A DNA stretch of 64,000 nt from Candidatus Aenigmatarchaeota archaeon (GCA_043814985.1 JBDRJK010000011.1:10710-74709), one strand, 5' to 3'. Positions 25,764-43,129 are shown, counted from the stretch's first letter. The notes: a model not told the origin generated them from the letters alone. Translations and numbers: made by a program.

Positions 25764-26999
25764 ATGGATAATGGAATAGTTGATTTCTGGTCTTTACCCC
25801 ATGACAAAATTTATTTAAATTTAGAAAATGAATTAAAGGAAAAAATTTTCAATTCTTCAAAAGAATATGCTGGGAGCTGGAGCAAATTAGGAAAATGTCT
25901 TGGCCTTTCCCTAAACAAATATGGAAGCTGTAAAATTATAGAAAGTGCTAGATGTAAAAAATTTAGTTTATTTTTACTTGATAAAATTATAGATTATTTG
26001 AATTCTAATGGCGAGAAAATAGATAAGAAGAATATAGAAAAGAAAATAACAGTACTTTCCTCTAAAAGAGGAGGTTCAAACAAGTTAGCCAACAGTATTT
26101 TCAATCCAAAGATACCCTTTAATTTTAATACTGTTGACGGTGCTACTGTCCTTTCTTCCATTTTTTATGATGGTGGAATTAACAGCAACCTATTGCCTCA
26201 TTATAGTAATCCAGACAATGTAGAACTGAGGAAAAGTGTGTTCGATTCTTTCACAAATGTTTTTGGCACATTCAAATCTAAAAAAAGCAACCCCTTAGAA
26301 AATCCTCAGCTATACTTCCCAAAAATAGTCGGAGTAATTCTTGTTTATGGTTTAGGATTATCTTATGGAAGAAAAGTTGTAAATAATCCATCCATACCAG
26401 AATTCTTATTTGAATCCTCTGAAGAAATAAAATCATCATTTCTTCGACAAGCCTTTGATGATGAAGGCTCTGTCCACAAGACTAAAAGAAATATAAGTTT
26501 CAAATTGGCCTCTTCTTCTGAAAGACCTGCTAAACTTCTTACCGGTGTAAAATGTCTGTTAGAGAGTCTAAACATAGAGAGCAATGGTCCTCATTATGTT
26601 GATACATACAATACTAAGAACGGCATTACAGCTTCCAGATGGAGAATATCTGTAACACATCAAGATAATTTAAAAAAGTTTTATGAAAAAATTGGTTTTC
26701 ATTCATCCTATAAGAAAAATAGACTTAAGAATATTATTCATACATTAAAATACCCTCATTATTCTGTTAAAAATAGAAACAAAATTATTATAAAATCTTG
26801 CAGTGAACTTCAAAAAAGATACGGTTTTATAACTAGCAGAGAACTTGCAATACAAATCGACAGAAGTCGGGTCTTAGCTAAAAAGGTTATTCGAAAATTA
26901 GTAGATAGGAAAGTTCTCTTAGTTAAAGAATGCCGCCATGGAAATATGGGAGCTAAATATGTTTTAAGTGATAATTATGAATCTTTGTGTAAGATGTAA
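25764..26999 (+). CDS. LAGLIDADG-like double-motif endonuclease-like protein with C-terminal wHTH
   Basis: Motifs 'LSSIFYDGGIN' and 'SFLRQAFDDEGSV' (LAGLIDADG-like); C-terminal 'ITSRELAIQIDRSRVLAKKVIRKLVDRKVL'. Confidence 0.5.
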   Translation: MDNGIVDFWSLPHDKIYLNLENELKEKIFNSSKEYAGSWSKLGKCLGLSLNKYGSCKIIESARCKKFSLFLLDKIIDYLNSNGEKIDKKNIEKKITVLSSKRGGSNKLANSIFNPKIPFNFNTVDGATVLSSIFYDGGINSNLLPHYSNPDNVELRKSVFDSFTNVFGTFKSKKSNPLENPQLYFPKIVGVILVYGLGLSYGRKVVNNPSIPEFLFESSEEIKSSFLRQAFDDEGSVHKTKRNISFKLASSSERPAKLLTGVKCLLESLNIESNGPHYVDTYNTKNGITASRWRISVTHQDNLKKFYEKIGFHSSYKKNRLKNIIHTLKYPHYSVKNRNKIIIKSCSELQKRYGFITSRELAIQIDRSRVLAKKVIRKLVDRKVLLVKECRHGNMGAKYVLSDNYESLCKM

Positions 27000-28191
27000 A
27001 GGTACTAGGATTTTATGTGGAAAAAGTAGTTGTCCATTGTTGATAAAGTTCTATAGTTATATGAGAACTAAACCACTTATTGATTCGACTACTCTCAATG
27101 GTTCATCGCCACCAGCTTGCTTTGTAGGTTCTTATGGATATCCCAAGGTTTTCGTGGGGCCCTTGGTGCCGCCGAAACACGGTGACACCAGCTTCATGGA
27201 CACGCCTGAGATGTGGAGGGGCAAGACAATGTGGGACATAGTCGACTTCAGGTTCCAGCTGGTGAGGGGCAAGTTCGTGACTGATGTCAAGAACTTTGAG
27301 GGAAAGATAATCGAGCGGACTAGGGAGATTGCCCTGGCTCAGGAGTCTCCCAGTGCTGAGGTTGAGTTCAAGAACAAACCAAGAGGATTATCCTTTAACA
27401 GTGAGACACAGCCCTTTGGTCCGTCGGCAAATGTCATTGGCCTTAATATTGAAAACAAGGGCTACAACAAGAAAATAGAAAAAGCGTTCTACGACACTGA
27501 CCTGAAGGCTGTGCCTGCTGTTGTTGATCTTTACAAGAACGGCGTGCTGATTTCAAAAATACAGAAGGCTTTTTCTGTGGGTGCGTTTGGAATCGGAAAG
27601 AGCAGGAGATTCGTTCCAACGCGCTGGAGCATAACAGCTGTTGATGACATGATTTCAAAACATCTCATAGAGCAGGTAAAAACATTCCCGCTGATAAACG
27701 AGTATCTGGTTTACGAGCACGCTGCTTTGGACAACCGCTGGTTTGTTTTAATGATACCACACGAATGGAGTTACGAGCAGATGGAAGCGTGGTATCCCAA
27801 GACATTGTGGAACCCGTCTGATGCAATTGACATATCAACAGCATGGGAAGGTTTCAACGGACTAAAGGGCTATCCGGATACAGCTGGCTGCTACTTTTCC
27901 ACGAGGCTGGCTGCCACCGAGTACCTTGCCAATGAAAGGAGGCAGGCTGCTGTAATAGTATTCAGGGAAATCCATCCAGGTTACACTGTTCCTGTGGGTG
28001 TCTGGCACACCCGAGAGAGCATAAGGGATGCTGTCAAGAAAACTCCTGTTAGATTCAGCTCAATGAGTGGCGCCTTGGACTATCTGTCAAAGAAGATGAC
28101 CATACCTGTTAAGAGGTGGGTTGAAAAATCCAGTCTTCTTAGGAACCTGATGCGACAGAGAAAGCTGTCAGACTTCATCAAGCCTTTCTAA
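26968..28191 (+). CDS. NreA-like DNA repair protein (DUF650/DUF651)
   Basis: N-terminal 'CVRCKGTRILCGKSSCP' and 'PPACFVGSYGYP'; ~400 aa. Confidence 0.5.
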   Translation: MIIMNLCVRCKGTRILCGKSSCPLLIKFYSYMRTKPLIDSTTLNGSSPPACFVGSYGYPKVFVGPLVPPKHGDTSFMDTPEMWRGKTMWDIVDFRFQLVRGKFVTDVKNFEGKIIERTREIALAQESPSAEVEFKNKPRGLSFNSETQPFGPSANVIGLNIENKGYNKKIEKAFYDTDLKAVPAVVDLYKNGVLISKIQKAFSVGAFGIGKSRRFVPTRWSITAVDDMISKHLIEQVKTFPLINEYLVYEHAALDNRWFVLMIPHEWSYEQMEAWYPKTLWNPSDAIDISTAWEGFNGLKGYPDTAGCYFSTRLAATEYLANERRQAAVIVFREIHPGYTVPVGVWHTRESIRDAVKKTPVRFSSMSGALDYLSKKMTIPVKRWVEKSSLLRNLMRQRKLSDFIKPF

Positions 28192-30329: not shown

Positions 30330-31406
30330 ATGAGTTTAGTTAGTAAAAGATTGAAAGGTAGTTCCGGCGCTGTCAAGGGCGCAATTGTTCTACTCACACT
30401 CGCGTTCATAGTTGCTAGCGTGAGCTATGTAATACCTGCTTTGGCTGTTCATAGTTCATCTGCTGTAATCAGTCCAGAATGGGTTATACCAAGTTCTGAA
30501 TACACATTCACCATAAATGTAACACATACTTATGTTGGCGGTGACGCCATAAGGGAAGTTAGAATATACAATAATACGCCAGGACATGAGGGTTTTGTTT
30601 GCGGTGTTGCTCCTTCTGGATGGTGGCTTATTGACCAAACAGGAACTTCTAATTACTGCCAATACCAAACAAACACCAATTGGCTTTATTATGATGATTT
30701 TGAAGACTTTACTTTCAAGGCAACAATGATTCAGGCCGAATGTACTTTGGTCACATGTTCTCATCTTTTTAGAACATCAACAATAGATATCAAGGAACCA
30801 CAAGGAGAGTTGTTCTATAATCTACCTGAAGTAAAGGTTGATTGTTTTGATCCTATAACAACAAAAACATATGGGGATCCTAAAAAACTTTTAGATGAAC
30901 ATTGGATTAATTCTTCAACGCCAATAACACTCACAGCAACAGATAATAAGGACTGTGATTCTGGTGTTGATTACATAAAGTATAGGTACTGTCTTGATTC
31001 CGGCTGTTATGAAGGCGAACCATGTGACTGTAGGGATGATCCTTGGACTACAGTAGATGACTATACAGATACATTCACAATTCCAGAAGATTCTGAACAC
31101 TGTATAGAATTTTATGCTGTAGACAATGTAGGTAATGATGAAAAGATAAAATCGCAGTGTGTTTTTGTTGACAATCAACCGCCTTATTCTGTTAAGGAAG
31201 TTGGTGATCCAAAGCTCCCACAGGATATAGAGGAAGAAGGTAGCGGAGATGCAGGATGGTCGACAGAAGGAGAATATAATTCACCGACCCATTCAGCAAA
31301 GCTTTATGTTGCAAACGGAGGAAATGACTGGGCTGGAGTTGATATAGAAGTTGATAAAGCTTTAAAAGATATTACTGAATTATCATTTTGGGAGAAAGTA
31401 GCATGA
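30330..31406 (+). CDS. N-terminal segment (signal peptide + first Ig-like Cys-rich repeat) of giant surface protein; interrupted
   Basis: Signal peptide 'AIVLLTLAFIVASVSYVIPALA'; repeat 'ITLTATDNKDCDSGVDYIKYRY...CIEFYAVDNVGNDE...QCVFVDNQPP'; ends at TGA 31404-31406 with downstream ORF open in +1 frame. Confidence 0.6.
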   Translation: MSLVSKRLKGSSGAVKGAIVLLTLAFIVASVSYVIPALAVHSSSAVISPEWVIPSSEYTFTINVTHTYVGGDAIREVRIYNNTPGHEGFVCGVAPSGWWLIDQTGTSNYCQYQTNTNWLYYDDFEDFTFKATMIQAECTLVTCSHLFRTSTIDIKEPQGELFYNLPEVKVDCFDPITTKTYGDPKKLLDEHWINSSTPITLTATDNKDCDSGVDYIKYRYCLDSGCYEGEPCDCRDDPWTTVDDYTDTFTIPEDSEHCIEFYAVDNVGNDEKIKSQCVFVDNQPPYSVKEVGDPKLPQDIEEEGSGDAGWSTEGEYNSPTHSAKLYVANGGNDWAGVDIEVDKALKDITELSFWEKVA

Positions 31407-31422
31407 TGACACATTCGTAGAA

Positions 31423-34400
31423 ATGGATGGGGCATTGGGACCGCTAGGCAGTACATTTGACTGGACAAAGATAGATGCTCTTGCTACACCAAGATGGTGG
31501 ACACCTAATGCTGGTGGAGATGGTTTATCTGGAGCTGGATATGGTTATACTGTACCACCTGCTCTCTATGATACATTCACCAATCTTTTGACTAAAATTG
31601 ATGACGGAACTTGGGATACGAATATTCCTGACACCAATGTGAAAGTAAAACTAATAAAACTAGTTATAGGTGGCTCAGGAAGTTGGATGAATGAAACAGC
31701 ATTTGTAGATGATTTAAGTTTGAATAATGTCATCATAATGTCTGAACCACCAGAATATTGGGTAACTCAAAATACATCAATAACATTGGATTGTGTAGAT
31801 CCAGAGCCTCATCCAGTTGATCAAGAAACTTTGTGCTATAGAGTATCTTTACACGATGATGGATTGGAGTATATAACAAACAATCCAGGTAAATATTGTG
31901 ACACCTTCGGAGGAACAAAAGACGAAGATTGGTGTTGTGTAAATGTTGGTGTCAACCCACTACCAATTCATTTCTTAGAAGATTCACACCATAACCTGGA
32001 ATACTTCTGTGAAGACTATCTTGGCAATACAGAAAGTCCATTTAATATACAGTGGTATTATGTTGATACTGTACCGCCAGCAACGACCAAAACATATGAG
32101 CCTGGTGTGTATGTAGACGGAAATACAGAGTATGCAGACACTGTTCATAGAGTAATATTGGAATCAGATGACGTAGGCGATATTTGTGTAATTGGTTTGG
32201 ATGAAATATATTATAGGGTCAGAGTTTTGAAGAACCCGAACAACTGGCATTACTGTTATGACGGTTGTGACGGATGGAACGGAATACCAGACCATTTGGA
32301 AGCTTTCCAAGCAACCCCATGGTTAACCTATGATGTGCCATTCGGTTTGCCAGAGGAATCTTGTAACGTTATTGAATATTATGCTGTAGACAGTTTAGGA
32401 AACGAAGAAACAGTTAAAAGACAGTGTGTATTCTATGATGCAACAGACCCAGTGACTGAAAAGAGTTATGGAGAGCCATTCTTCAGTCCTGATGGAAATG
32501 TTACAAAGTGGATAAACACAAGTACTGAAATAACCCTTGCTGCAACAGACCCCGAACCACATCCTTCTGGTGTTAAGGAAACAAATTATAGAGTAACATT
32601 ACTAGGAAGCAATGAGGCATGTGAAAGTAATAGTAGATGCCAAGAAATAAAAATAGATGGGGGTGGTTGGACACCATATACGGTCCCATTTACAATTGGA
32701 GAAGAATCATGCCATTTGATTGAATATTATAGCGTTGATAATGTCGATAAAGATGAGGACATAAATAGGCAGTGTGTATTTGTTGAAGACACAGCACCAA
32801 CTATTTTGGAAAAGACAGTCGGTCAGCCAAGTTTTGAGAGAGAAGGAAAGACTTACATATCAGGCCAGAGTCCAATAACCATGAGATGTGAGGATCGGGG
32901 AGACCACCCAGTAGATTATGTCTCAATGTGGTACAGATACAGGGTGAGTGATGACTGTGCAACGTGGGGACCTTGGATTACAGACGGTTGCCAGGATCAA
33001 GTTGTGAACGGATGGTGTGATCCAACAGGACAAGGTGTAGTTGAAAAGACAATATACTTCCCACAAGACTCCTGCCATGAATTAGAATACTATTGTGTGG
33101 ACGCACTAGGCAACGAGGCACAGCATGAATTCGAGATTGATGTTGTTGACAATCAGGCACCTGAAATAGAAAAAATAATAGTCGGTCCGCAATGGGGAGA
33201 CTGTCCACCTGGAGAAGGTGATACATGCTTTGTTGACAGTGCAACCGAGATAATTGTTAATGCAAGCGATCCAGAGCCACATCCAGCAGGTGAAGTGCTT
33301 TGTGATTGGAATGTTGTTGTAAAGAATGTTGCAGGAGCAGAGATTGACAGTTATGGAGATAGTGGAATTACTCCACCATTCCCAATAACCTTCCCAGAAG
33401 AATCGTTCCACGAATTAACAATAGATTGTTATGATAGACTTGGAAATAATGCATACGATTTTGAAGTTTTCGAAGCTGATCATACATCACCTTTAATTTT
33501 GAAGAGTTACAATCCAGAAGAAATATATCGCGAAGGCAATGGATGGTGGGCAGAGTGGATAGACTCAGATACAGAAATAAACATTGAAGTAACTGACGAT
33601 GGAGATCATAAATCAGGAATTAAAGAAGTCAAGTATCGTTATACAAGACAAGACAATGATGAATATTGTAACTACACTGTTGAAGACCAATATGAGTGTG
33701 AAGATGCAGTCGGAACTGGTGTTTGGACATATGTTGACCCAGCAGATTTTGATGACTTTACTTTCCAAATACCACAAGACTCATGTCACTTAATTGAAAT
33801 AGTAGCAACAGACAATGTAGATAAAGAAAATTATCATAAACAGTGTGTATACGTTGACAATCAAGGACCAGACCCATTGAAAGAAGTATATGATCCAAAA
33901 GCAATGTGGACTCCAGGTATAGACGGAGATCAACCAAGTTACTTCTATCCTGAAGAAACTGCACATTGTTGGGATGGAACAGAGTTTTCAATAGACTGCT
34001 GGAAAGTTACAATGATGACAAGAATATCTCTTGACTGCGAAGACAAGCAGCCACACCCAGTTGATCATGAAGGCGTTTGCTTCAAAGTTGGTTTGGATGG
34101 AGAAGACGCAACTGAAGAATACTGTAACAGCAATGAAGAAGTATCCTGTGTCTTAGATTGCACTGATAACGAAAATGACATCAAGGGAGAAATGATTGAT
34201 GGTTGGTGTTGTGTCGATGGTACAATAGAAAACTTTTATTTCCAAGAAGAAACAGAGCACAACCTAAAGTATTATTGTACTGATGCTTTAGGAAATGTAG
34301 GACCAGAAGACGAAGAGAAGTTCAAGGTTGAAGGAACAACATTTGAAATACCATTGTACAAGAAGTGGAACTTGATATCAGTGCCATTTGTATTATTGGA

Positions 34401-35055
34401 CGACGACCCAGAAGTGGTATTCAATAATGTAAAAGAAAACATAATATCAGTCTGGGCATATGACGGAGACAAGGTATTATGTGGTCAAGAGTGGTGCGTA
34501 TGGACACCAGGAGATGGTCCAGATAATCTAAGAATAATACCAGGTTGGGGTTATTGGGTATTGACAAACCTGACAGAAGAACCAGTAGAGGTATTGATTG
34601 GAGGAAGCTTGTTCAGTCCAAGAACAACGCCACCAAGCAGGGATTTGGTTTCAGGATGGAACCTGATTGGTTACTATGGAACAAGTTGGGAACTGTATGA
34701 ATGTGGAGACTTTGAGCCAACATGCAGACCAGGAATCAATTGGTTCCCAGGCAAGTACATATACGGAGACCAAGTATACTGCGCCTTGAACTCGCTGGTA
34801 GACACACAAGAAGGATATCCAAGATGGAGTTCATTGTGGAGTTACATAAGCTGTGGAAGTCACACTGCATATTGGTTAGGATTGAACACATGTGCAGACC
34901 CAGATAGTCCACTACAATCAAACCTTGACAGAATGTATGCAGGTCGTGGATACTGGTTAGAGTTGGATGTAGCAGACATGTATGCACCAGCAACAACTTG
35001 TCTATGGAACAGTGACTATGAATGCAGATGGTCAGGCGGCGGAATAATACCTTAG
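31423..35055 (+). CDS. giant Cys-rich surface protein, >=7 Ig-like repeat modules plus Trp-rich C-terminal domain (continuation of 30330 ORF)
   Basis: 1210 aa; modules 'TLDCVDPEPHP...YRV...EESCHxIEYYxVDxxGNxE...QCVFVD'; no own signal peptide. Confidence 0.7.
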   Translation: MDGALGPLGSTFDWTKIDALATPRWWTPNAGGDGLSGAGYGYTVPPALYDTFTNLLTKIDDGTWDTNIPDTNVKVKLIKLVIGGSGSWMNETAFVDDLSLNNVIIMSEPPEYWVTQNTSITLDCVDPEPHPVDQETLCYRVSLHDDGLEYITNNPGKYCDTFGGTKDEDWCCVNVGVNPLPIHFLEDSHHNLEYFCEDYLGNTESPFNIQWYYVDTVPPATTKTYEPGVYVDGNTEYADTVHRVILESDDVGDICVIGLDEIYYRVRVLKNPNNWHYCYDGCDGWNGIPDHLEAFQATPWLTYDVPFGLPEESCNVIEYYAVDSLGNEETVKRQCVFYDATDPVTEKSYGEPFFSPDGNVTKWINTSTEITLAATDPEPHPSGVKETNYRVTLLGSNEACESNSRCQEIKIDGGGWTPYTVPFTIGEESCHLIEYYSVDNVDKDEDINRQCVFVEDTAPTILEKTVGQPSFEREGKTYISGQSPITMRCEDRGDHPVDYVSMWYRYRVSDDCATWGPWITDGCQDQVVNGWCDPTGQGVVEKTIYFPQDSCHELEYYCVDALGNEAQHEFEIDVVDNQAPEIEKIIVGPQWGDCPPGEGDTCFVDSATEIIVNASDPEPHPAGEVLCDWNVVVKNVAGAEIDSYGDSGITPPFPITFPEESFHELTIDCYDRLGNNAYDFEVFEADHTSPLILKSYNPEEIYREGNGWWAEWIDSDTEINIEVTDDGDHKSGIKEVKYRYTRQDNDEYCNYTVEDQYECEDAVGTGVWTYVDPADFDDFTFQIPQDSCHLIEIVATDNVDKENYHKQCVYVDNQGPDPLKEVYDPKAMWTPGIDGDQPSYFYPEETAHCWDGTEFSIDCWKVTMMTRISLDCEDKQPHPVDHEGVCFKVGLDGEDATEEYCNSNEEVSCVLDCTDNENDIKGEMIDGWCCVDGTIENFYFQEETEHNLKYYCTDALGNVGPEDEEKFKVEGTTFEIPLYKKWNLISVPFVLLDDDPEVVFNNVKENIISVWAYDGDKVLCGQEWCVWTPGDGPDNLRIIPGWGYWVLTNLTEEPVEVLIGGSLFSPRTTPPSRDLVSGWNLIGYYGTSWELYECGDFEPTCRPGINWFPGKYIYGDQVYCALNSLVDTQEGYPRWSSLWSYISCGSHTAYWLGLNTCADPDSPLQSNLDRMYAGRGYWLELDVADMYAPATTCLWNSDYECRWSGGGIIP

Positions 35056-35226: not shown

Positions 35227-35982
35227 ATGAACCAAAAATTGATGTTGACTACATTTGTTGGTATTATGTTACTTTCTAATTTAGTTTTGGCAGTGCCAAT
35301 CGCCCATCAATTTTATGGCAATGTCAGTATTAACGGAAGTCCAGCTCCGGATGGAACAACTGTTGTTGCTAAAATAGACGGAACAGAGGTTGGAAGCACA
35401 ACAACTAAAGGTGGAAAGTATGGTTATGACCCAGTATTCATAATATCACTTTCTTCTATACAATCTGGAAGAACAATTAATTTTTTTGTTAATGGAAATC
35501 AAGCAAATGAAAACTTTCAATCTTGTTATGATTTTGCTTGTAGCACAGAATTAGATTTAACAGCTACAGGTGAAACAACTTCTGGCACTACAACAACTAC
35601 TACAGGCGGCGGAGCTCCTAGCGGTGGCGGTTCCACACCATCAACAGAAACCACAACTGAAACAACCGAAACTACAGAAGAGGGTTGCCAGGAGAGATGG
35701 ACTTGTTCAGACTGGGGAGCATGTGAGAACGGCATCCAGACAAGAGTTTGTGAAGACATAAACAACTGCGGAACAAACAGTGGAGAACCGTTCTCATCTC
35801 AGCCATGTGCAACTGTTGGAGAGGAAGCAGAAGCATCAGTTGGACCATCAGGATTCTTCCTACTAACGCCGACCAACCTGTTGATAGGGTCAGTTGTTTT
35901 AATAATAGTCGCGGCAATCACAATCTTTCTATTAAGAAGAAAATCCGAAAACATCGTACTGCCGCCCAAAGCGCTTCTTTAA
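35227..35982 (+). CDS. secreted Thr-rich protein with TSP1-like Cys motif and C-terminal TM anchor
   Basis: Signal peptide; 'TTTTTTGGG...TETTETTE' linker; 'CQERWTCSDWGACENGIQTRVCEDINNCG'; C-terminal TM + 'RRK'. Confidence 0.55.
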   Translation: MNQKLMLTTFVGIMLLSNLVLAVPIAHQFYGNVSINGSPAPDGTTVVAKIDGTEVGSTTTKGGKYGYDPVFIISLSSIQSGRTINFFVNGNQANENFQSCYDFACSTELDLTATGETTSGTTTTTTGGGAPSGGGSTPSTETTTETTETTEEGCQERWTCSDWGACENGIQTRVCEDINNCGTNSGEPFSSQPCATVGEEAEASVGPSGFFLLTPTNLLIGSVVLIIVAAITIFLLRRKSENIVLPPKALL

Positions 35983-36049: not shown

Positions 36050-36802
36050 ATGTCCAAGAAAAATAAGTTTCTCTTTATAATAGTATTGTCGATAGTTTTG
36101 TCGTCTTCGTTAGCCTATGCTATGATAAATTTCCCAGACTTCAAGATCTTCCCGACAATATACGATGAGATAATGCCGAATGAATTGCTTGAGGAGCTGA
36201 AGATTATTGACAGGCTGTCTTTCGTCAAGCTGGCCCAGCACGGCTACAGCCACGGCACAAATGAAAGCCGCCTTGATGTTTTGAAAGGCTACAAGATTCT
36301 GGAATACGATTACGGCTTGGACATAGAATACTATATCCCGCCTTATGATATTCCCCATGCATTCCCCGTGCCCGAAAAAATTTTCTACATACCGGAAAAG
36401 GCCGAGGGCATATACTATGAAAAGGAGAAGATGGACTACGGCCAGTCTTCAGTTGATGATAAATGGACAATGGCCATCCATATTCAGAACGAGATAAACA
36501 CTACTTGGCTGGACGAGATATCAGAGGGAAAGGAGATTGATTACTTCCGTATTGATGACATCAACACGGACATAGTTGATGTAGATACCCAAAAAAACAG
36601 GATATACACCATGATCAACTTCTGCGGCTATAAGAACTGCACCCTTGTTCTGGGTATCATTCCTGTTGTTCCTAGGATGCAGGAGTCGGACAAAAGCTAC
36701 CTTTTCTTCAACAAGGCAATGATAGCCTTGGGCATAATGATGATACTCCCCATATACCTTTTCTACTTTTTGAGTTACCAGTTCCATTGGTGGTTAAAAT
36801 GA
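36050..36802 (+). CDS. membrane-anchored extracytoplasmic protein, weak polysaccharide-deacetylase-like (DUF2334-like 'HGYSH')
   Basis: N-terminal signal/TM, C-terminal TM; 16-nt overlap with GT2 gene. Confidence 0.3.
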   Translation: MSKKNKFLFIIVLSIVLSSSLAYAMINFPDFKIFPTIYDEIMPNELLEELKIIDRLSFVKLAQHGYSHGTNESRLDVLKGYKILEYDYGLDIEYYIPPYDIPHAFPVPEKIFYIPEKAEGIYYEKEKMDYGQSSVDDKWTMAIHIQNEINTTWLDEISEGKEIDYFRIDDINTDIVDVDTQKNRIYTMINFCGYKNCTLVLGIIPVVPRMQESDKSYLFFNKAMIALGIMMILPIYLFYFLSYQFHWWLK

Positions 36803-37845
36803 ATAATGTATCAAGCATCATAATACCGGTCTATAATGAAGAGAAGATTATCATGAATATGCTCAAAAAGAATGTCAAGGTTTTTGAAAACAGCAATATG
36901 GACATCAAGGAGATAATCGTGGTTGATGACGGTTCCATTGACAACTCAAAGAAGGAGATTAAGAGATTCATAAGGGATTACAAAGGCAATATTGACATCA
37001 GGCTGATTCCCCACACAACAAACATGGGAAAGGCCCAGGCTCTTAACACGGGGATAAGGCACGCCAATGGGGAATACGTTCTCTTGTCTGATTCGGACTC
37101 TTTCATGGATGTTGAGGCGCCTGAAAAGATTATTCTGAAGATGAGAGAGACAGGGGCTTCATGTATTGTAGGACATGTTGTGCCTGCTCAGAACACCCTT
37201 CTGACGCGCCTGCAGAGGATGGAGTATGACTTTGACCAAAAGGTAATAAGAAGGGTGCAGTCCCTGTACACCAACGTGATATCAATTCCAGGACCGCTGT
37301 ATTTCACCAAAAAGAGCATTGTTGAAAAGATAAAATTCGACAAGTACAGCATTGTCGAGGATTTCAAGATCGGGATTGAGATGAACAAGAAGAGGCAAAG
37401 GATAGTCCCGACTGATGCCGTGGTATACTCTTATGCCCCTACCAACTTTTCGCAGCTCAGGAAGCAGAGGCTCAGATGGTTCGGGGGAGTATTGAAGGAG
37501 ACCCTGAGAAACAAGGATGTCTGGAAGACCAACCCGTTCTATTTTTCCAACGTGCTGATGTGCTTCACGTCGTTCTTCTTCACCATATCAACCGTAACTT
37601 TGTTTGGCCTGATGCTTTACTTCGCTACAAACCTGCCCAACCTGCTGGTAAACTTCGTGCTGTTCTTCCTTTTCTTCTGCTTTACAATTTCAGCTGTTTA
37701 TGCCCTGTCTATAAGAAGGTTCGAGTTGGACACTTTCCTGGCATTCCCGCTCTATCTGACCTTCTTGTTCATAGTCAGGACAGAGGTTGTCATAAAAGTT
37801 GTTTTGAACAGGAAGTTCGTTTGGGGGACAAGGGAATACCGTTAA
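36787..37845 (+). CDS. family-2 glycosyltransferase, processive synthase type (QxxRW)
   Basis: 'VVDDGSID', 'LLSDSDSF' DxD, 'QRLRWFGG'; 4 C-terminal TM helices. Confidence 0.8.
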   Translation: MVVKMNNVSSIIIPVYNEEKIIMNMLKKNVKVFENSNMDIKEIIVVDDGSIDNSKKEIKRFIRDYKGNIDIRLIPHTTNMGKAQALNTGIRHANGEYVLLSDSDSFMDVEAPEKIILKMRETGASCIVGHVVPAQNTLLTRLQRMEYDFDQKVIRRVQSLYTNVISIPGPLYFTKKSIVEKIKFDKYSIVEDFKIGIEMNKKRQRIVPTDAVVYSYAPTNFSQLRKQRLRWFGGVLKETLRNKDVWKTNPFYFSNVLMCFTSFFFTISTVTLFGLMLYFATNLPNLLVNFVLFFLFFCFTISAVYALSIRRFELDTFLAFPLYLTFLFIVRTEVVIKVVLNRKFVWGTREYR

Positions 37846-38165
37846 TCAGTAGTGTTTCCCTTTAGGAGAATTTCAATTATCTGCGGCAAAGAATTGTTTA
37901 TTGTATTGACAATATTCTCCAGTATCCTGTTGAACAAATAGCCCAATGCACTGTTCGCCCTTTCTGCCAGAACATTAGTGATGTTAGTACCTTCAAACAA
38001 ATCCAAGATATCAGAGACCCTGGTCTGGTTGAACACGGTTATGTTGGGAAGCCCCCTGATGGTGATGTTGGGGATCCTTATGGTTATGTTGGGAATAGTT
38101 ATACCTTGGGCCATCACAACAGGAGAAAGTAGCAGGAACACCGCAAAAACCAGAAAGGCTTTCAT
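37842..38165 (-). CDS. small secreted protein with 'IPNITIR' repeats and many N-x-T sequons
   Basis: Signal peptide 'MKAFLVFAVFLLLSPVVMAQG'. Confidence 0.45.
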   Translation of the reverse strand: MKAFLVFAVFLLLSPVVMAQGITIPNITIRIPNITIRGLPNITVFNQTRVSDILDLFEGTNITNVLAERANSALGYLFNRILENIVNTINNSLPQIIEILLKGNTTD

Positions 38166-39772: not shown

Positions 39773-40804
39773 ATGAAGAAAACATTAACAGGATTCGTGA
39801 TTTTATCAATTCTATTAGTATTATCAGTAAACATCGCTATTGCTGAAGAAGAGAGCGTATCATTCGATGTAACTGAGAATGAGACAAACAGCAGCTATAC
39901 TGTAAACATAGACATACAAATCTCAGGAAACGATACTCATGTAAGAGATGACCTATACGGAACAGCAACTGGTTCAGGACCAAGGGATGTGATTTTGGGA
40001 GGTGCTGAATTTGATCATAATAGCGAAGTTAGAGAGATTTGCTATCAGCCAAGCTTACAAGCATATTTTAACCAAATAGGAGACATACCACCATCAGGTT
40101 TTGCAGCATATCTAAAATCTTTGGGATATGATGATGAATCTCATATAAGTTTTATATGGAGTTTGTGCCAGCAAGAGTACATCAACCAACAGCAAGACGC
40201 ATGGTCAACAGACTCTGGCGTACAACCAACTGATATGGTCCGTTACATTACAGGTTCCATAGACTGGTTGTTGGGAAGAGAAGCAAATCCTTTAGACGGA
40301 TACAAAAAGATAGGAGTTGCCTTGGACAGTTACTTTGCTTCTGATAGGGATGTTTGGCTTCTGGTAAACAGAATAAACATTCTGGAGGTAAGAATAGAAG
40401 CATTGGAAAAGACAATAGAAAGAATCGCTTCTGAGGAATACTGTGAAATGAAGGTTGAAGCTCTAATGAAATATAATTTGAGCTATGTCAAGTGCGGAGA
40501 GAACTCGACCATCTATGCAAGAGTCGATCCAAACGAATTTGGTTTCAACATAATCGGTTACACTAACGAGGATCAATGCGCTGTAGAATGGGGATGTACA
40601 GATTGGAGTGAATGCGAGAACGGAATCCAGACTAGAAGATGTTCTGATGCAAACATGTGCGGAAGATATGAAAATAAACCAGAAGAAACACAGGTATGTG
40701 CAGTGGTTCAAGAAGATATAGAAGAGCCAGATTTAACTTATGTTTCAGTCAAGGAAGTCCTTCCAACAATACAGAGCTTGCTTCTGCCTTTGTTCGTGGT
40801 CTGA
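39773..40804 (+). CDS. secreted protein with TSP1-like Cys motif
   Basis: Signal peptide; 'EWGCTDWSECENGIQTRRCSDANMCG' paralogous to motif in 35227 gene. Confidence 0.5.
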   Translation: MKKTLTGFVILSILLVLSVNIAIAEEESVSFDVTENETNSSYTVNIDIQISGNDTHVRDDLYGTATGSGPRDVILGGAEFDHNSEVREICYQPSLQAYFNQIGDIPPSGFAAYLKSLGYDDESHISFIWSLCQQEYINQQQDAWSTDSGVQPTDMVRYITGSIDWLLGREANPLDGYKKIGVALDSYFASDRDVWLLVNRINILEVRIEALEKTIERIASEEYCEMKVEALMKYNLSYVKCGENSTIYARVDPNEFGFNIIGYTNEDQCAVEWGCTDWSECENGIQTRRCSDANMCGRYENKPEETQVCAVVQEDIEEPDLTYVSVKEVLPTIQSLLLPLFVV

Positions 40805-41011: not shown

Positions 41012-43129
41012 ATGAAGAAAGTTATTTTATTTTCTATAATAGCAATAGTCTTGCTGAGCTCAATAACATTGGCAATGACAGACGTGAGAGCGTCAAATAT
41101 TAAATCTAATAGAGTTATAGCGCGCACAAATTCTCTAGCAGACAGGATGCTATTCAGAATGCAGGGGTGCAAAATAATTCACGAGCTGGAAGATGCGACT
41201 GCAATGAATTGCCCAGAGGCAATTGCTTCGAGATTCGAGCAAGATGAAGTTCTTTATATAATGGATTTACAAGCAGACCAACAGATAGGGGCGGACAAGG
41301 TTTGGGCTTTGGGTTATGACGGTTCTGGGGTAACAGTCGCGGTTTTGGATACAGGAGTTGATTATGACCATCAGGAGCTGTCAGACAGCATAGTTGGAGG
41401 TATAAGCTTTGTCTCATACACATCTAGCTATTCTGATGACCATGGACATGGAACACATGTCTCAGGAATAATAACTGCCAATGGTGTTGTAGCCTCTGCA
41501 GAAGGCGTTGCGCCAGGAGCAAAGGTATGGATGGCAAAAGTTTGCGATTCTGGTGGTTCTTGCTATACGAGCGATATAGCAGCTGCGATTGATTATGTTG
41601 TTGATGGGCCTGATGGTGCACCAAATACAGGAGACGAACCAGCAAAGATAATGAGCATAAGCTTGGGCGGCGGAGGAACTTCTAGGTCAAATTGTGATAA
41701 TGATTACTTGGCTTCAAAAGTTAACTGGGCAGTAAGCAAGGGTGTGACTGTTGTAGCAGCAGCAGGCAATACCGGAAGAGTAGTTAGCAGCCCTGGTTGT
41801 GCAAGCGGGGCAATAGCAGTTGGGGCAGTTGACAAAGGCGATGTAAGACCATCTTGGTCTGGCTCAGGCAGTGCGTTAGATATAGTTGCACCAGGGGTAA
41901 GCATTTATTCTAGTTTGCCGGGCGGCGCTTATGCGTCTTGGAGCGGTACTTCAATGGCAACACCGCATGTTTCAGCAACAGTGGCTTTGATGAGGCAGGT
42001 GAACCCGAGCTTAACAGACAGTCAAATCAAAAGCATACTTTATTCAACAGCCAAAGATTTAGGAAGTGCAGGATGGGATAGATATTATGGCTGGGGAAGA
42101 GTCGACGCCTACAATGCATACTTGGCTGTTAAACCAATAGAACCTGAATGCACAATTGATTCAGAATGTGATGACGGATTATACTGTAATGGAGCTGAGA
42201 CATGTATTTCAGGAGTTTGCCAATCAGGAGCATCTGTTGGCTGTTCCTATTTAGATAATCAATGCAATGTTGGAATTTGTGATGAAGCTTCAGATAGTTG
42301 TGTGGCACAACCAAGACCCGACGGAACTTCTTGTAATGACGGTTTGTTCTGTAATGTAGGAGAAACCTGTCAGGCTGGAGCATGCGGCGGAGGAGAGGCT
42401 TACACCTGTGGTGTTAATGACACTTGTACTATTGCTTCTTGTGATGAATCATCAGATAGCTGTTCAAGTTCACCAGTAGCAGACGGAACAACATGTGACG
42501 ATAATTTGTTTTGCACAGTGTATGACGCTTGTACAAGCGGTATTTGCGGTGGAGAACAAATAAACTGTAATGACGGTGTAGGATGCACTGTTGATTCTTG
42601 CAACGAGGGAACAGGCTCTTGCGATAACACGCCGGATAATTCAATATGTGATGATGAAATATATTGTAATGGTGTGGAAACATGCCATGCAACATCAGAT
42701 TGCCAGGCGGGAATCCCAGTAAATTGTAATGATAATAATTTTTGTACAGCAGATAGTTGCGTTGAAGGTTTAAAAACATGTGAAAACGTCTGGGAGGCAT
42801 GTGGTTCGACGGATGGATGCTGCGGACCCGATTGCAATAGTATAAATGATCCAGACTGTGCAACAGCTGTTAAATGCTGGAGCGGAGATTACCAATATCT
42901 CTACAGGAATTCGAATCAGATGAAAAAATTCTGCAAGTGTGCAATGGGTATTTATGGATACAATAGTTACAGTTATAGTTGGGGAAGGGAAACAGTTTAT
43001 TATTATTTAGACTCGGGAAACAATGAAGAGTGGGATACAAATTCAAGGTCATCATATCTTCCAGTAAACAAAGTAGTTTGTGCAGACGGTGAACCATACT
43101 CGACTGGCGAAGATTACTACTACGGTTAA
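41012..43129 (+). CDS. secreted subtilisin-like serine protease (S8) with C-terminal Cys-rich repeats
   Basis: Signal peptide; Asp 'VAVLDTGVD', His 'HGHGTHVSG', Ser 'GTSMATPHVS'; >=6 repeats 'CxDGLYCNGAETC'. Confidence 0.85.
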   Translation: MKKVILFSIIAIVLLSSITLAMTDVRASNIKSNRVIARTNSLADRMLFRMQGCKIIHELEDATAMNCPEAIASRFEQDEVLYIMDLQADQQIGADKVWALGYDGSGVTVAVLDTGVDYDHQELSDSIVGGISFVSYTSSYSDDHGHGTHVSGIITANGVVASAEGVAPGAKVWMAKVCDSGGSCYTSDIAAAIDYVVDGPDGAPNTGDEPAKIMSISLGGGGTSRSNCDNDYLASKVNWAVSKGVTVVAAAGNTGRVVSSPGCASGAIAVGAVDKGDVRPSWSGSGSALDIVAPGVSIYSSLPGGAYASWSGTSMATPHVSATVALMRQVNPSLTDSQIKSILYSTAKDLGSAGWDRYYGWGRVDAYNAYLAVKPIEPECTIDSECDDGLYCNGAETCISGVCQSGASVGCSYLDNQCNVGICDEASDSCVAQPRPDGTSCNDGLFCNVGETCQAGACGGGEAYTCGVNDTCTIASCDESSDSCSSSPVADGTTCDDNLFCTVYDACTSGICGGEQINCNDGVGCTVDSCNEGTGSCDNTPDNSICDDEIYCNGVETCHATSDCQAGIPVNCNDNNFCTADSCVEGLKTCENVWEACGSTDGCCGPDCNSINDPDCATAVKCWSGDYQYLYRNSNQMKKFCKCAMGIYGYNSYSYSWGRETVYYYLDSGNNEEWDTNSRSSYLPVNKVVCADGEPYSTGEDYYYG

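What the first reader, a model, noticed from the sequence alone, without database searches (positions are those of the whole stretch)
31790..35055. Novel Cys-enriched variant of a bacterial-Ig-like repeat (>=7 modules) plus a distinct Trp/Gly-rich C-terminal domain
Modules of ~110-130 aa recur with a shared signature, e.g. TLDCVDPEPHP.., TEITLAATDPEPHPSG.., SPITMRCEDRGDHP.., TEIIVNASDPEPHPAG.., TEINIEVTDDGDHKSG.. and TRISLDCEDKQPHP... The signature is [ST]-x-I-[TS]-[LMV]-x-[CA]-x-D-P-E-P-H-P ... Y-R-[VY] ... F-x-[IF]-[PG]-[EQ]-[ED]-S-[CF]-H-x-[IL]-E-[YI]-[YV]-x-V-D-x-[VL]-[GD]-[NK]-x-E ... Q-C-V-[FY]-V-[DE]-x-x-x-P. This mirrors the 'ITLxATDxxSGVxxIxY..DGG.W......EG.H...Y.A.DxAGN.E....V.VD..AP' Ig-like domain seen in bacterial surface proteins (CHB_HEX_C/Big-like). 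Here it is decorated with conserved Cys pairs, and DPEPHP replaces SGV. The final ~240 aa (34330..35055) switch to a W/G/Y-rich domain (WNLISVPF, VWAYDG, GWGYWVL) of unknown fold, a candidate host- or S-layer-binding module.
Basis: partly seen in the sequence, partly recalled or inferred. Interest (0 to 1): 0.55.

Follow-up and report, generated by a model that had tools for sequence, protein, structure and literature searches.

The report
Broken DPANN surface-protein gene with anchor partner
The repeats are real: they belong to a large, cysteine-stapled, secreted surface protein of a tiny symbiotic (DPANN) archaeon, whose gene is broken in this genome and is almost always followed by a small membrane-anchored partner gene, so the two probably form a previously undescribed surface complex.

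Summary
ORF 31423..35055 holds 7 repeat modules and a Trp/Gly-rich C-terminal domain. An 8th module, the signal peptide and a conserved N-terminal domain lie in the upstream ORF 30330..31406. Full-length homologues show the two ORFs are one gene, broken here by an out-of-frame deletion of about 35-43 codons.

The window comes from a Ca. Aenigmatarchaeota MAG. The family is DPANN-wide and everywhere annotated "hypothetical". The modules are a divergent, enlarged form of the NCBIfam OmpL47-type domain (NF047446, 99.7 bits against a cutoff of 40), with a Cys-stapled inserted loop. They do not pass any Pfam Big or CHB_HEX_C threshold. Cys positions co-vary in three module classes, which form C-A-B triplets.

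The C-terminal domain is an internal duplication, always at the extreme C-terminus, with no Pfam, NCBIfam or PDB relative.

New here is a small gene (35227..35982) for a signal peptide, a beta domain, a Gly/Thr linker, a Cys motif and a C-terminal TM helix. It lies directly downstream in 73/88 genes, and in 83/88 counting tandem paralogues. The reverse test gives 60/69.

Best reading: an anchor-less modular adhesin docked by its C-terminal domain to a co-encoded membrane stalk. The docking step is inferred, not shown.

The parts
30330..30446 (+). Sec-type signal peptide of the (broken) gene: MSLVSKRLKGSSGAVKGAIVLLTLAFIVASVSYVIPALA, then VH...
   Evidence: Read from the sequence. Homologues have varied hydrophobic N-termini that end in A-x-A followed by a His that is 98% conserved. 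The cleavage site itself is inferred.
30447..30854 (+). Conserved N-terminal domain (~135 aa) of the family
   Evidence: BLASTP finds it at residues ~30-180 in 95 of 120 homologues. Conserved residues are H3, P11, C53, G59-W60, C72, Y74, D115 and D133. No Pfam hit.
30855..31199 (+).
   Evidence: NF047446 scores 44.4 bits, above the cutoff of 40. The module profile scores 128.5 bits.
31200..31719 (+). Inserted accessory domain (beta-rich, jelly-roll-like by sequence pattern only), split by the lesion at ~31395..31425
   Evidence: It is contiguous in P0003, P0013, P0044 and P0031. The window lacks ~35-43 residues ('..NDYGVNVILGVDANGDGVYEAQDKLWHIGATQHDPGVLG..') and changes frame at this point. 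The domain is present in only 15 of 120 homologues. The fold was not tested.
31720..32100 (+). Module M1 (class B: C23/C94 + C37/C70)
32098..32472 (+). Module M2 (class A: C87-C108 + loop Cys)
   Evidence: NF047446 26.6 bits
32470..32820 (+). Module M3 (class A); modelled
   Evidence: NF047446 scores 44.4 bits. The AF2 model has pLDDT 88.1. Foldseek matches only Ig-like domains, and weakly.
32818..33186 (+). Module M4 (class b)
33184..33522 (+). Module M5 (class C: C11/C36 + C94)
33520..33888 (+). Module M6 (class A)
33886..34347 (+). Cys-rich linker plus terminal module M7 (class B), conserved as one unit with the C-terminal domain
   Evidence: 106 homologues align over M7 plus the C-terminal domain at 39-66% identity. 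The last module is class B or b in 119 of 120. The AF2 model has pLDDT 81.6.
34348..34638 (+). C-terminal domain, lobe 1 (KKWNLISVPF ... VWAYD ... PGWGYWVL)
   Evidence: Found at the extreme C-terminus in 119 of 120 homologues. 763 representative clusters match at E<=1e-3, always at the C-terminus. Predicted all-beta, with pLDDT about 90.
34639..35052 (+). C-terminal domain, lobe 2 (SGWNLIGYYG ... WSSLWSY ... AGRGYWLEL), homologous to lobe 1
   Evidence: hhalign of lobe 1 against lobe 2 gives probability 92.6%, E 4.4e-7. No Pfam, NCBIfam or PDB relative.
35227..35982 (+). Conserved partner gene. It encodes a signal peptide, a ~100-aa beta domain (PxQFYGxVxxNGxPAxDG...), a Gly/Thr linker, a Cys motif (WTCSDWGACENGIQTRVC), a C-terminal TM helix and a basic tail
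   Evidence: 48% identical to the gene downstream of P0003. Found immediately downstream in 73 of 88 genes, plus 10 more behind a tandem paralogue. The reverse test gives 60 of 69. 77 of 80 partners have a C-terminal TM helix.

Best explanation
ORF1 and ORF2 together are one gene for a ~1,600-aa, very acidic protein secreted through Sec by a DPANN archaeon (Ca. Aenigmatarchaeota).

Its body is a rod of small beta-sandwich modules. These derive from the OmpL47-type domain and are each enlarged by a loop held by disulfides. The modules fall into three Cys-pattern classes that usually form C-A-B triplets, typically nine modules in all. Between modules, different family members carry different ligand-binding inserts: here a jelly-roll-like domain, elsewhere VWA, discoidin, LamG or PA14 domains.

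The protein has no membrane anchor of its own. I infer that its duplicated Trp-rich C-terminal domain docks onto the small type-I membrane protein encoded directly downstream. The pair would then form a cell-surface adhesion or display complex, with logic like SlaA/SlaB or dockerin/cohesin.

In this genome the large gene is interrupted by an out-of-frame deletion. As assembled, ORF2 lacks a signal peptide and would not be functional, unless the lesion is an assembly error.

Shown: the repeats, the family, the architecture, the broken gene, the Cys co-variation, the synteny and the partner's topology features. Inferred: the disulfides, the docking between the C-terminal domain and the partner, and the adhesive function.
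For: One gene, broken:
- P0003, P0013, P0044 and P0031 cover 99-100% of the ORF1+ORF2 fusion.
- They carry ~35-43 residues that are missing exactly at the junction.
- The two ORFs are in different frames.

Secreted and anchor-less:
- An N-terminal signal peptide is present.
- The C-terminal domain ends the protein in 119 of 120 homologues and in all listed representative hits.

Module identity:
- NF047446 scores 99.7 bits against a cutoff of 40.
- The module model has pLDDT 88 and matches only Ig-like, BIg or cadherin folds.

Disulfides:
- Cys columns co-occur in pairs: C87/C108 phi 0.87, C37/C70 0.94, C23/C94 0.61, C11/C36 0.64. C94 and C108 are mutually exclusive (phi -0.98).
- 67% of modules have an even Cys count.
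- C51, C57, C81 and C102 are invariant within class A.

Ordered architecture:
- C-A-B triplets recur and the last module is class B or b in 119 of 120.
- The number of modules is most often 9.

Adhesion-type inserts in homologues:
- VWA/integrin-beta-like, F5/8-C, LamG_3, PA14 and disintegrin domains.

Partner:
- Adjacent downstream on the same strand in 73 of 88 genes, and 83 of 88 counting tandem paralogues.
- The reverse test gives 60 of 69.
- 77 of 80 have a C-terminal TM helix, and 76 of these are followed by K/R.
- Paralogues that lack the N-terminal domain and most modules still carry the C-terminal domain and sit in the same cassette.
Against: - No direct evidence exists for an interaction between the C-terminal domain and the partner.
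- The N-terminal domain is also conserved (95 of 120) and could be the docking end instead.
- Disulfides are inferred from co-variation only. Many of these organisms are anaerobes, and no oxidative-folding genes were looked for.
- No expression or localisation data exist, and no cultivated DPANN turned up among the listed hits.
- N-glycosylation sequons are not enriched (10 against 9.8 expected). Enrichment might be expected for a major archaeal surface protein, though this is my own expectation and was not checked.
- The copy in this window is disrupted, so nothing can be said about function in this organism.
Confidence: 0.6

Rival explanations
1. The pair is a two-component S-layer or coat, like SlaA/SlaB of Sulfolobales. 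The large protein would form the outer lattice and the small TM protein the stalk.
For: - The cassette is DPANN-wide, with one or two loci per genome where this can be judged from record titles.
- The number and order of modules are rather fixed.
- The large subunit has no anchor and is paired with a membrane-anchored small subunit in an operon-like arrangement.
- A SlaA-like, anchor-less, multi-Ig protein has been proposed as the S-layer of Nanobdella (bioRxiv 10.1101/2023.10.27.564410).
Against: - S-layer proteins are described as almost free of sulfur-containing amino acids (bioRxiv 10.1101/2021.04.28.441871). This family has a median of 3.9% Cys.
- S-layers of Aenigmatarchaeota, Altiarchaeota, Nanoarchaeota and Micrarchaeota are predicted to be MSTP-like beta-sandwich proteins, a different family (bioRxiv 10.1101/2024.05.28.596244).
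- Variable adhesion-type inserts and tandem paralogues sharing one partner fit adhesins better than a lattice.
- The gene is broken here, which would be hard to tolerate if it encoded the only coat.
Confidence: 0.15
2. It is a secreted or loosely attached extracellular protein (matrix, biofilm or nutrient-binding). The downstream gene would be an unrelated neighbour or an assembly/export helper rather than an anchor.
For: - The large protein has no anchor.
- It is very acidic: 281 D+E against 92 K+R.
- The closest named relative of the module, OmpL47, is a Leptospira surface protein studied among matrix-binding adhesins (papers listed, which were not read in detail).
Against: - The adjacency holds in both directions across at least nine DPANN phyla (83/88 and 60/69). 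This is far beyond chance neighbourhood.
- The partner has the topology of a surface stalk, not of a chaperone or transporter.
Confidence: 0.15
3. ORF2 as annotated (1210 aa, starting at 31423) is a complete, functional stand-alone gene, and ORF1 is a separate gene.
For: - NCBI annotates ORF2 as a protein, ABIE55_01565.
- Both ORFs are open and start with ATG.
Against: - ORF2 has no signal peptide although it is Cys-rich and built of extracellular modules.
- The junction cuts one domain in two. Every homologue with that domain has it contiguous, with ~35-43 more residues.
- 95 of 120 homologues start with the signal peptide and N-terminal domain that here lie in ORF1.
Confidence: 0.05

Closest known systems
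OmpL47-type beta-barrel domain (NCBIfam NF047446; Leptospira surface protein OmpL47, NF047441)
   Same: - It shares the sequence signature: ITLxATD..SGV..YR ... W ... F.I.E[ED]S.H.IEY.A.D..GN.E ... V.VD..P.
- The whole ORF scores 99.7 bits (cutoff 40), and modules M0 and M3 each pass alone with 44.4 bits.
- Both are tandem arrays in a surface protein.
   Different: - Modules here are 113-131 aa against a 68-position profile. The match is split in two by an inserted loop (median 24 aa, range 7-74) that carries 2-3 Cys.
- Extra residues (P-E-P-H-P) precede SGV.
- Classes B and C are too divergent to pass: M1 and M5 give no hit, and M4, M6 and M7 score 14.6-19.6 bits.
- The host is an archaeon.
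- It is not an OmpL47 equivalog (62 bits against 250).
Bacterial Ig-like / cadherin-like adhesin repeats (e.g. SiiE BIg domains 2yn5, Sas6 BIg 7uww, intimin D00-D0 6tqd, BT-R1 cadherin EC12 7tni)
   Same: - The predicted module fold is a small beta-sandwich, and these are the best Foldseek matches: probability up to 0.99, TMq 0.47-0.52, rmsd 3.6-3.9 A over 107-115 columns.
- Modules are arranged as a tandem rod.
- There is an acidic 'V-D-N-T-P-P' junction between modules.
   Different: - No match reaches E<0.03 or TM>0.52.
- No Pfam Big, cadherin or CHB_HEX_C model passes.
- Ca2+ binding was not tested.
- The Cys staples and the helical insert (H49-59 in the model) were not compared with these structures. 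That they are absent from them is my own recollection.
SlaA/SlaB two-component S-layer of Sulfolobales
   Same: A large anchor-less multi-beta-sandwich protein is encoded next to a small protein with a single C-terminal TM helix (description of SlaA/SlaB).
   Different: - No sequence similarity was detected.
- This family is Cys-rich.
- It carries variable adhesion inserts.
- DPANN S-layers are predicted to be of another type.
Pfam DUF6843 (PF20862) and W_rich_C (PF07483)
   Same: - DUF6843 gives sub-threshold hits on the 'ESCH.IEYYAVD.GN.E..K.QCVF' half of class A modules (19.5-28.5 bits).
- W_rich_C gives a faint hit at the M7/C-terminal domain boundary (E 0.009-0.035).
   Different: - In the window both are below their curated cutoffs of 27 and 26.2.
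- Only 1 of 29 family members touches W_rich_C.

Membership tests
NCBIfam NF047446 OmpL47-type beta-barrel domain | Score at or above the curated cutoff (40 bits) for the protein | tested here: met
   ORF2 scores 99.7 bits, E 9.6e-29, and ORF1 scores 40.1 bits. Taken singly, M0 and M3 each score 44.4 bits.
NCBIfam NF047446 OmpL47-type beta-barrel domain | Every repeat recognisable as the domain, with a contiguous ~68-residue match | tested here: not met
   M2 scores 26.6, M7 19.6, M6 15.1 and M4 14.6 bits. M1 and M5 give no hit. Matches are split into two stretches around an inserted loop.
NCBIfam NF047441 Leptospira OmpL47 (equivalog) | Score at or above 250 bits | tested here: not met
   62.4 bits
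   CHB_HEX_C_1 scores 13.4 against 22 and Big_3_2 scores 15.9 against 23.3, both on M0 only. Nothing was found for the other modules or for the whole ORF.
Ig-like beta-sandwich fold (structural class) | A confident model whose best structural neighbours are Ig-like sandwiches with TM of 0.5 or more | tested here: inconclusive
Disulfide-stabilised module | Cys residues paired in space and oxidised | not testable with these tools
   Only indirect evidence is available: paired co-occurrence of Cys columns with phi 0.61-0.94, and mutual exclusion with phi -0.98.
Two-component S-layer (SlaA/SlaB-like) | Large anchor-less subunit plus small TM-anchored subunit encoded together | tested here: met
   73-83 of 88 forward, 60 of 69 reverse, and a TM helix in 77 of 80 partners.
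Two-component S-layer (SlaA/SlaB-like) | Typical S-layer composition (few or no Cys) and homology to known SLP families | tested here: not met
   Median Cys is 3.9%. There is no PDB, Pfam or NCBIfam S-layer hit. DPANN SLPs are predicted to be MSTP-like.
Two-component S-layer (SlaA/SlaB-like) | Forms a 2D lattice; among the most abundant proteins | not testable with these tools
   No expression or imaging data exist for any carrier.

The most novel reading that the evidence does not exclude
The large protein and its small TM partner form a previously undescribed two-component surface apparatus conserved across most DPANN phyla. It would consist of a disulfide-stapled rod of C-A-B module triplets, exchangeable ligand-binding inserts, a new duplicated Trp-rich docking domain and a dedicated membrane stalk. 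It would serve as the general host-attachment (or second coat) device of these episymbiotic archaea.
Probability: 0.3. Interest if true: 0.75.

Novelty: new variant of a known kind. Interest (0 to 1): 0.55.

Why it matters
DPANN archaea are mostly tiny episymbionts, and how they hold on to their hosts is largely unknown. According to the papers read here, most of their lineage-specific surface proteins lack any annotation.

This family is large: at least 124 species-level genomes and 763 representative clusters for the C-terminal domain. It spans at least nine DPANN phyla and is named only "hypothetical".

Four results turn an anonymous giant ORF into a concrete, testable candidate for a conserved DPANN surface or attachment complex:
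- The family has a fixed modular plan.
- It carries swappable adhesion-type inserts.
- It has a private C-terminal domain.
- It has an almost obligatory membrane-anchored partner.

The work also gives two domain families (the C-terminal lobes and the partner ectodomain) that are missing from Pfam and NCBIfam. For this particular genome, it corrects the annotation: two ORFs are one disrupted gene.

Tried and rejected
- Pfam on the whole ORF, on each module, on the C-terminal unit of 29 homologues, on the intact insert and N-terminal domains of P0003, and on the partner. Nothing passed threshold.
- PDB sequence search with profiles of the modules, of M7 plus the C-terminal domain, and of the partner. 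The only hits were designed Kelch proteins ('SAKe'; every single stretch has E of 20 or more) and Gly-linker artefacts. Both were rejected as motif or low-complexity noise.
- Foldseek of the M7 plus C-terminal domain model against PDB and BFVD. Only generic multi-Ig arrays came up, with TM below 0.2, so there is no fold assignment for the C-terminal domain.
- A type IV pilin-like (class III) signal was considered because of 'KG|AIVLL'. It was rejected because homologues have ordinary, poorly conserved signal peptides ending A-x-A.
- Viral or mobile origin was rejected. The neighbours are archaeal housekeeping genes: Nre, FttA, Rad50 and an Obg-like GTPase.
- Rfam and tRNA scans of the window were empty.
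- Literature searches found no description of this family.
- N-glycosylation sequon enrichment was tested and is absent.
Full report
**What is in the sequence.**
- The + strand carries an ORF at 31423..35055 (1210 aa).
- Motif searches and a MAFFT alignment show seven modules of 113-131 aa, 20-45% identical to each other.
- A last segment of ~235 aa has a clearly different composition: W 6.2%, G 10%, almost no His.
- An eighth module, preceded by a signal peptide and a further domain, lies in the upstream ORF 30330..31406.
- That ORF is in another reading frame. Its end ('...ELSFWEKVA**') and the beginning of the ORF2 frame ('...K*HDDTFVEMDG...') overlap within about 20 nt.

**Origin and family.**
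- Neighbouring genes are archaeal housekeeping genes: Nre, FttA, a Rad50-like protein and an Obg-like GTPase.
- ORF2 is identical to a 'hypothetical protein' of a Candidatus Aenigmatarchaeota MAG.
- A search with the joined ORF1+ORF2 found at least 120 homologues with E below 1e-206. They are 1,100-2,700 aa long (mostly 1,300-2,200) and come from Aenigm-, Woese-, Pace-, Micr-, Alti- and Nanoarchaeota and Diapherotrites. Almost all are unnamed.
- A scan of one genome per species found 124 matching stretches, of which the best 80 (78 distinct loci) were kept. Nearly all of these are DPANN. They include the complete AR10 chromosome and the Iainarchaeum andersonii single-cell genome. A few lie on short contigs in bins labelled bacterial or Methanosarcinales, which I take to be binning noise.

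**The gene is broken here.**
- Four homologues (P0003, P0013, P0044, P0031) cover 99-100% of the joined query.
- They read straight through the junction. They carry ~35-43 residues ('NDYGVNVILGVDANGDGVYEAQDKLWHIGATQHDPGVLG' in P0003) that are absent from the window exactly where the frame changes.
- A single out-of-frame deletion of roughly 110-130 nt, inside an inserted accessory domain, explains both the missing residues and the frameshift.
- Whether this is a real lesion or a MAG assembly error cannot be decided from the window.
- As assembled, ORF2 has no signal peptide.

**Architecture of the family.**
- By BLASTP, 95 of 120 homologues have the N-terminal domain at residues ~30-180, directly after a signal peptide that ends in A-x-A. 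A His that follows is 98% conserved.
- 119 of 120 have the C-terminal domain at the very end.
- The number of modules is 7-15, with a mode of 9.
- The insert found in the window occurs in only 15 of 120. Other members carry integrin-beta-like VWA, F5/8-C discoidin, LamG_3, PA14 or disintegrin-type domains instead.
- The protein is very acidic (281 D+E against 92 K+R). It is not enriched in N-glycosylation sequons.

**What the modules are.**
- No Pfam model passes threshold. Sub-threshold values are DUF6843 19.5 against 27 on the whole ORF, and on M0 alone Big_3_2 15.9 against 23.3 and CHB_HEX_C_1 13.4 against 22.
- NCBIfam NF047446, the OmpL47-type beta-barrel domain, scores ORF2 at 99.7 bits (cutoff 40).
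- Taken singly, only M0 and M3 pass (44.4 bits each). M2, M7, M6 and M4 score 26.6 down to 14.6 bits, and M1 and M5 are not seen.
- The profile has 68 positions while the modules have ~116 residues. The match is split around a central loop (median 24 aa, range 7-74) that usually holds 2-3 Cys.
The modules are an enlarged and partly very divergent form of it.
- 'DPEPHP' does not replace 'SGV'. It precedes it.
- Across 968 modules, D25, S86, H88 and D96 are 90-100% conserved.

**Cysteines.**
- Cys columns co-occur in sets:
  - C87 with C108, phi 0.87.
  - C37 with C70, phi 0.94.
  - C23 with C94, phi 0.61.
  - C11 with C36, phi 0.64.
  - C94 and C108 exclude each other, phi -0.98.
- 67% of modules have an even number of Cys.
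- This defines three classes. Class A has C87-C108 plus a loop pair. Class B has C23/C94 plus C37/C70. Class C has C11/C36 plus C94.
- The classes follow each other as C-A-B triplets. The commonest pattern is CABCAbCAB, where lower-case b marks a class B variant that has C23/C94 but lacks the C37/C70 pair. The last module is class B or b in 119 of 120.
- The window reads (A)-insert-B-A-A-b-C-A-B.
- Paired co-variation is what disulfides predict, but the bonds themselves were not observed.

**Structure.**
- An AF2 model of module M3, built with 57 class A homologues, is confident (pLDDT 88.1). It shows long beta strands and a short helical segment at the Cys-containing loop.
- Its only PDB neighbours by Foldseek are Ig-like sandwiches: cadherin EC12, intimin D00-D0, Sas6 and SiiE BIg domains, Fn3 and PKD.
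- These matches are weak. The best E is 0.036 and the best TMq is 0.52.
- An Ig-like sandwich is therefore the most likely fold class, but no solved structure is a close relative.
- A model of M7 plus the C-terminal domain (pLDDT 81.6, pTM 0.80) is all-beta. It has no significant neighbour in the PDB or among viral models.

**The C-terminal domain.**
- It has no Pfam, NCBIfam or PDB relative.
- It consists of two homologous lobes, each running from 'GWNLI' to 'PG.GYW' (hhalign probability 92.6%, E 4.4e-7).
- In 1.84 billion representative proteins it matches 763 at E<=1e-3. In every listed full-domain match it ends within about 25 residues of the C-terminus, and the few exceptions are partial matches.
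- It also ends shorter paralogues that lack the N-terminal domain and have only 0-4 modules.

**The partner gene.**
- The next gene is 171 nt downstream (35227..35982, 251 aa). It encodes a signal peptide, a ~100-aa conserved domain ('PxQFYGxVxxNGxPAxDG...'), a Gly/Thr linker, a Cys motif (WTCSDWGACENGIQTRVC), a C-terminal hydrophobic helix and a basic tail.
- The gene after P0003 is 48% identical to it.
- In the species-level genome loci, 73 of 88 evaluable genes with the C-terminal domain have this gene starting within 400 nt downstream on the same strand. Ten more have it behind a tandem paralogue.
- Searching metagenomes with the small protein alone, 60 of 69 evaluable copies have a C-terminal domain ending within 1.5 kb upstream.
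- 77 of 80 complete partners have the C-terminal TM helix, and 76 of these are followed by at least two K/R.
- The partner also has no Pfam, NCBIfam or PDB relative.

**Interpretation.**
- The facts that need explaining are:
  - a secreted protein that has no anchor;
  - a private domain that always sits at the C-terminus;
  - an almost obligatory downstream type-I membrane protein;
  - paralogues that share only the C-terminal domain and the partner;
  - variable inserts of adhesion type.
- The simplest account is a surface complex in which the C-terminal domain docks the rod onto the membrane stalk and the rod displays binding domains. The docking step and the adhesive role are inferences.
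- The main rival is a SlaA/SlaB-like coat. Against it stand the high Cys content (compared), the prediction that S-layers in these phyla are MSTP-like, and the variable inserts.
- A freely secreted protein with an unrelated neighbour is hard to reconcile with the two-way synteny.
- I found no paper describing the family.

**Verdict.**
- The thing is a new, Cys-stapled variant of a known kind of repeat (the OmpL47-type, Ig-like surface module). It sits in an unannotated DPANN-wide surface protein, with an undescribed C-terminal domain and an undescribed partner.
- The copy in this window is disrupted.

Noticed in passing
window 30441..30449 (ORF1 residues 38-40, 'AVH'): A His two to three residues after the predicted signal-peptidase site is 98% conserved in the N-terminal domain of the family (62 sequences). 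It could be a metal-binding or otherwise special mature N-terminus.
   Followed up: partly
window 35698..35751 and 40589..40642: The same Cys motif W.C.DW..CENGIQTR.C occurs in the partner protein and near the C-terminus of another secreted protein (ORF 39773..40804). It loosely resembles a thrombospondin type-1 repeat. A weak PDB hit to a TSR construct (5foe, E 0.026) is the only support.
   Followed up: partly
window 25764..26999 (+), overlapping the start of the Nre gene at 26968..28191: A 411-aa ORF with a LAGLIDADG_3 homing-endonuclease-like domain lies directly upstream of, and slightly overlaps, the archaeal Nre gene.
   Followed up: no
window 36050..37845 and 41012..43129: The cassette is followed by three genes: a 250-aa protein with N- and C-terminal hydrophobic segments, a family-2 glycosyltransferase (E 1.3e-29) and, further on, a 705-aa S8 subtilase. 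This could be a cell-envelope gene neighbourhood. It is not conserved in the six other loci whose gene lists were examined (L001-L006).
   Followed up: partly
window 37842..38165 (-): A small secreted ORF (107 aa) contains the reiterated peptide 'ITIPNITIRIPNITIRGLPNITV', which is rich in N-I-T sequons.
   Followed up: no
L003 13143..17168; also L017, L025, L037, L041, L043, L054, L055, L057, L059, L066: Many genomes carry a second, shorter paralogue in tandem. It has a different N-terminus and 0-4 modules but the same terminal module and C-terminal domain. It sits between the large gene and the shared small partner gene.
   Followed up: partly
L007, L021, L024, L018, L065 (genome contigs): A few carriers are binned as Omnitrophota, Chloroflexi, Pseudomonadota or Methanosarcinales, mostly on short contigs. 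This is probably mis-binning of DPANN contigs, but horizontal transfer was not excluded.
   Followed up: no
window 35023..35052 (C-terminal tail ...CRWSGGGIIP): The closest homologues share a conserved extreme C-terminal tail, C.W[TS]GGG[IL].P. More distant members lack it. Its meaning is unknown.
   Followed up: no
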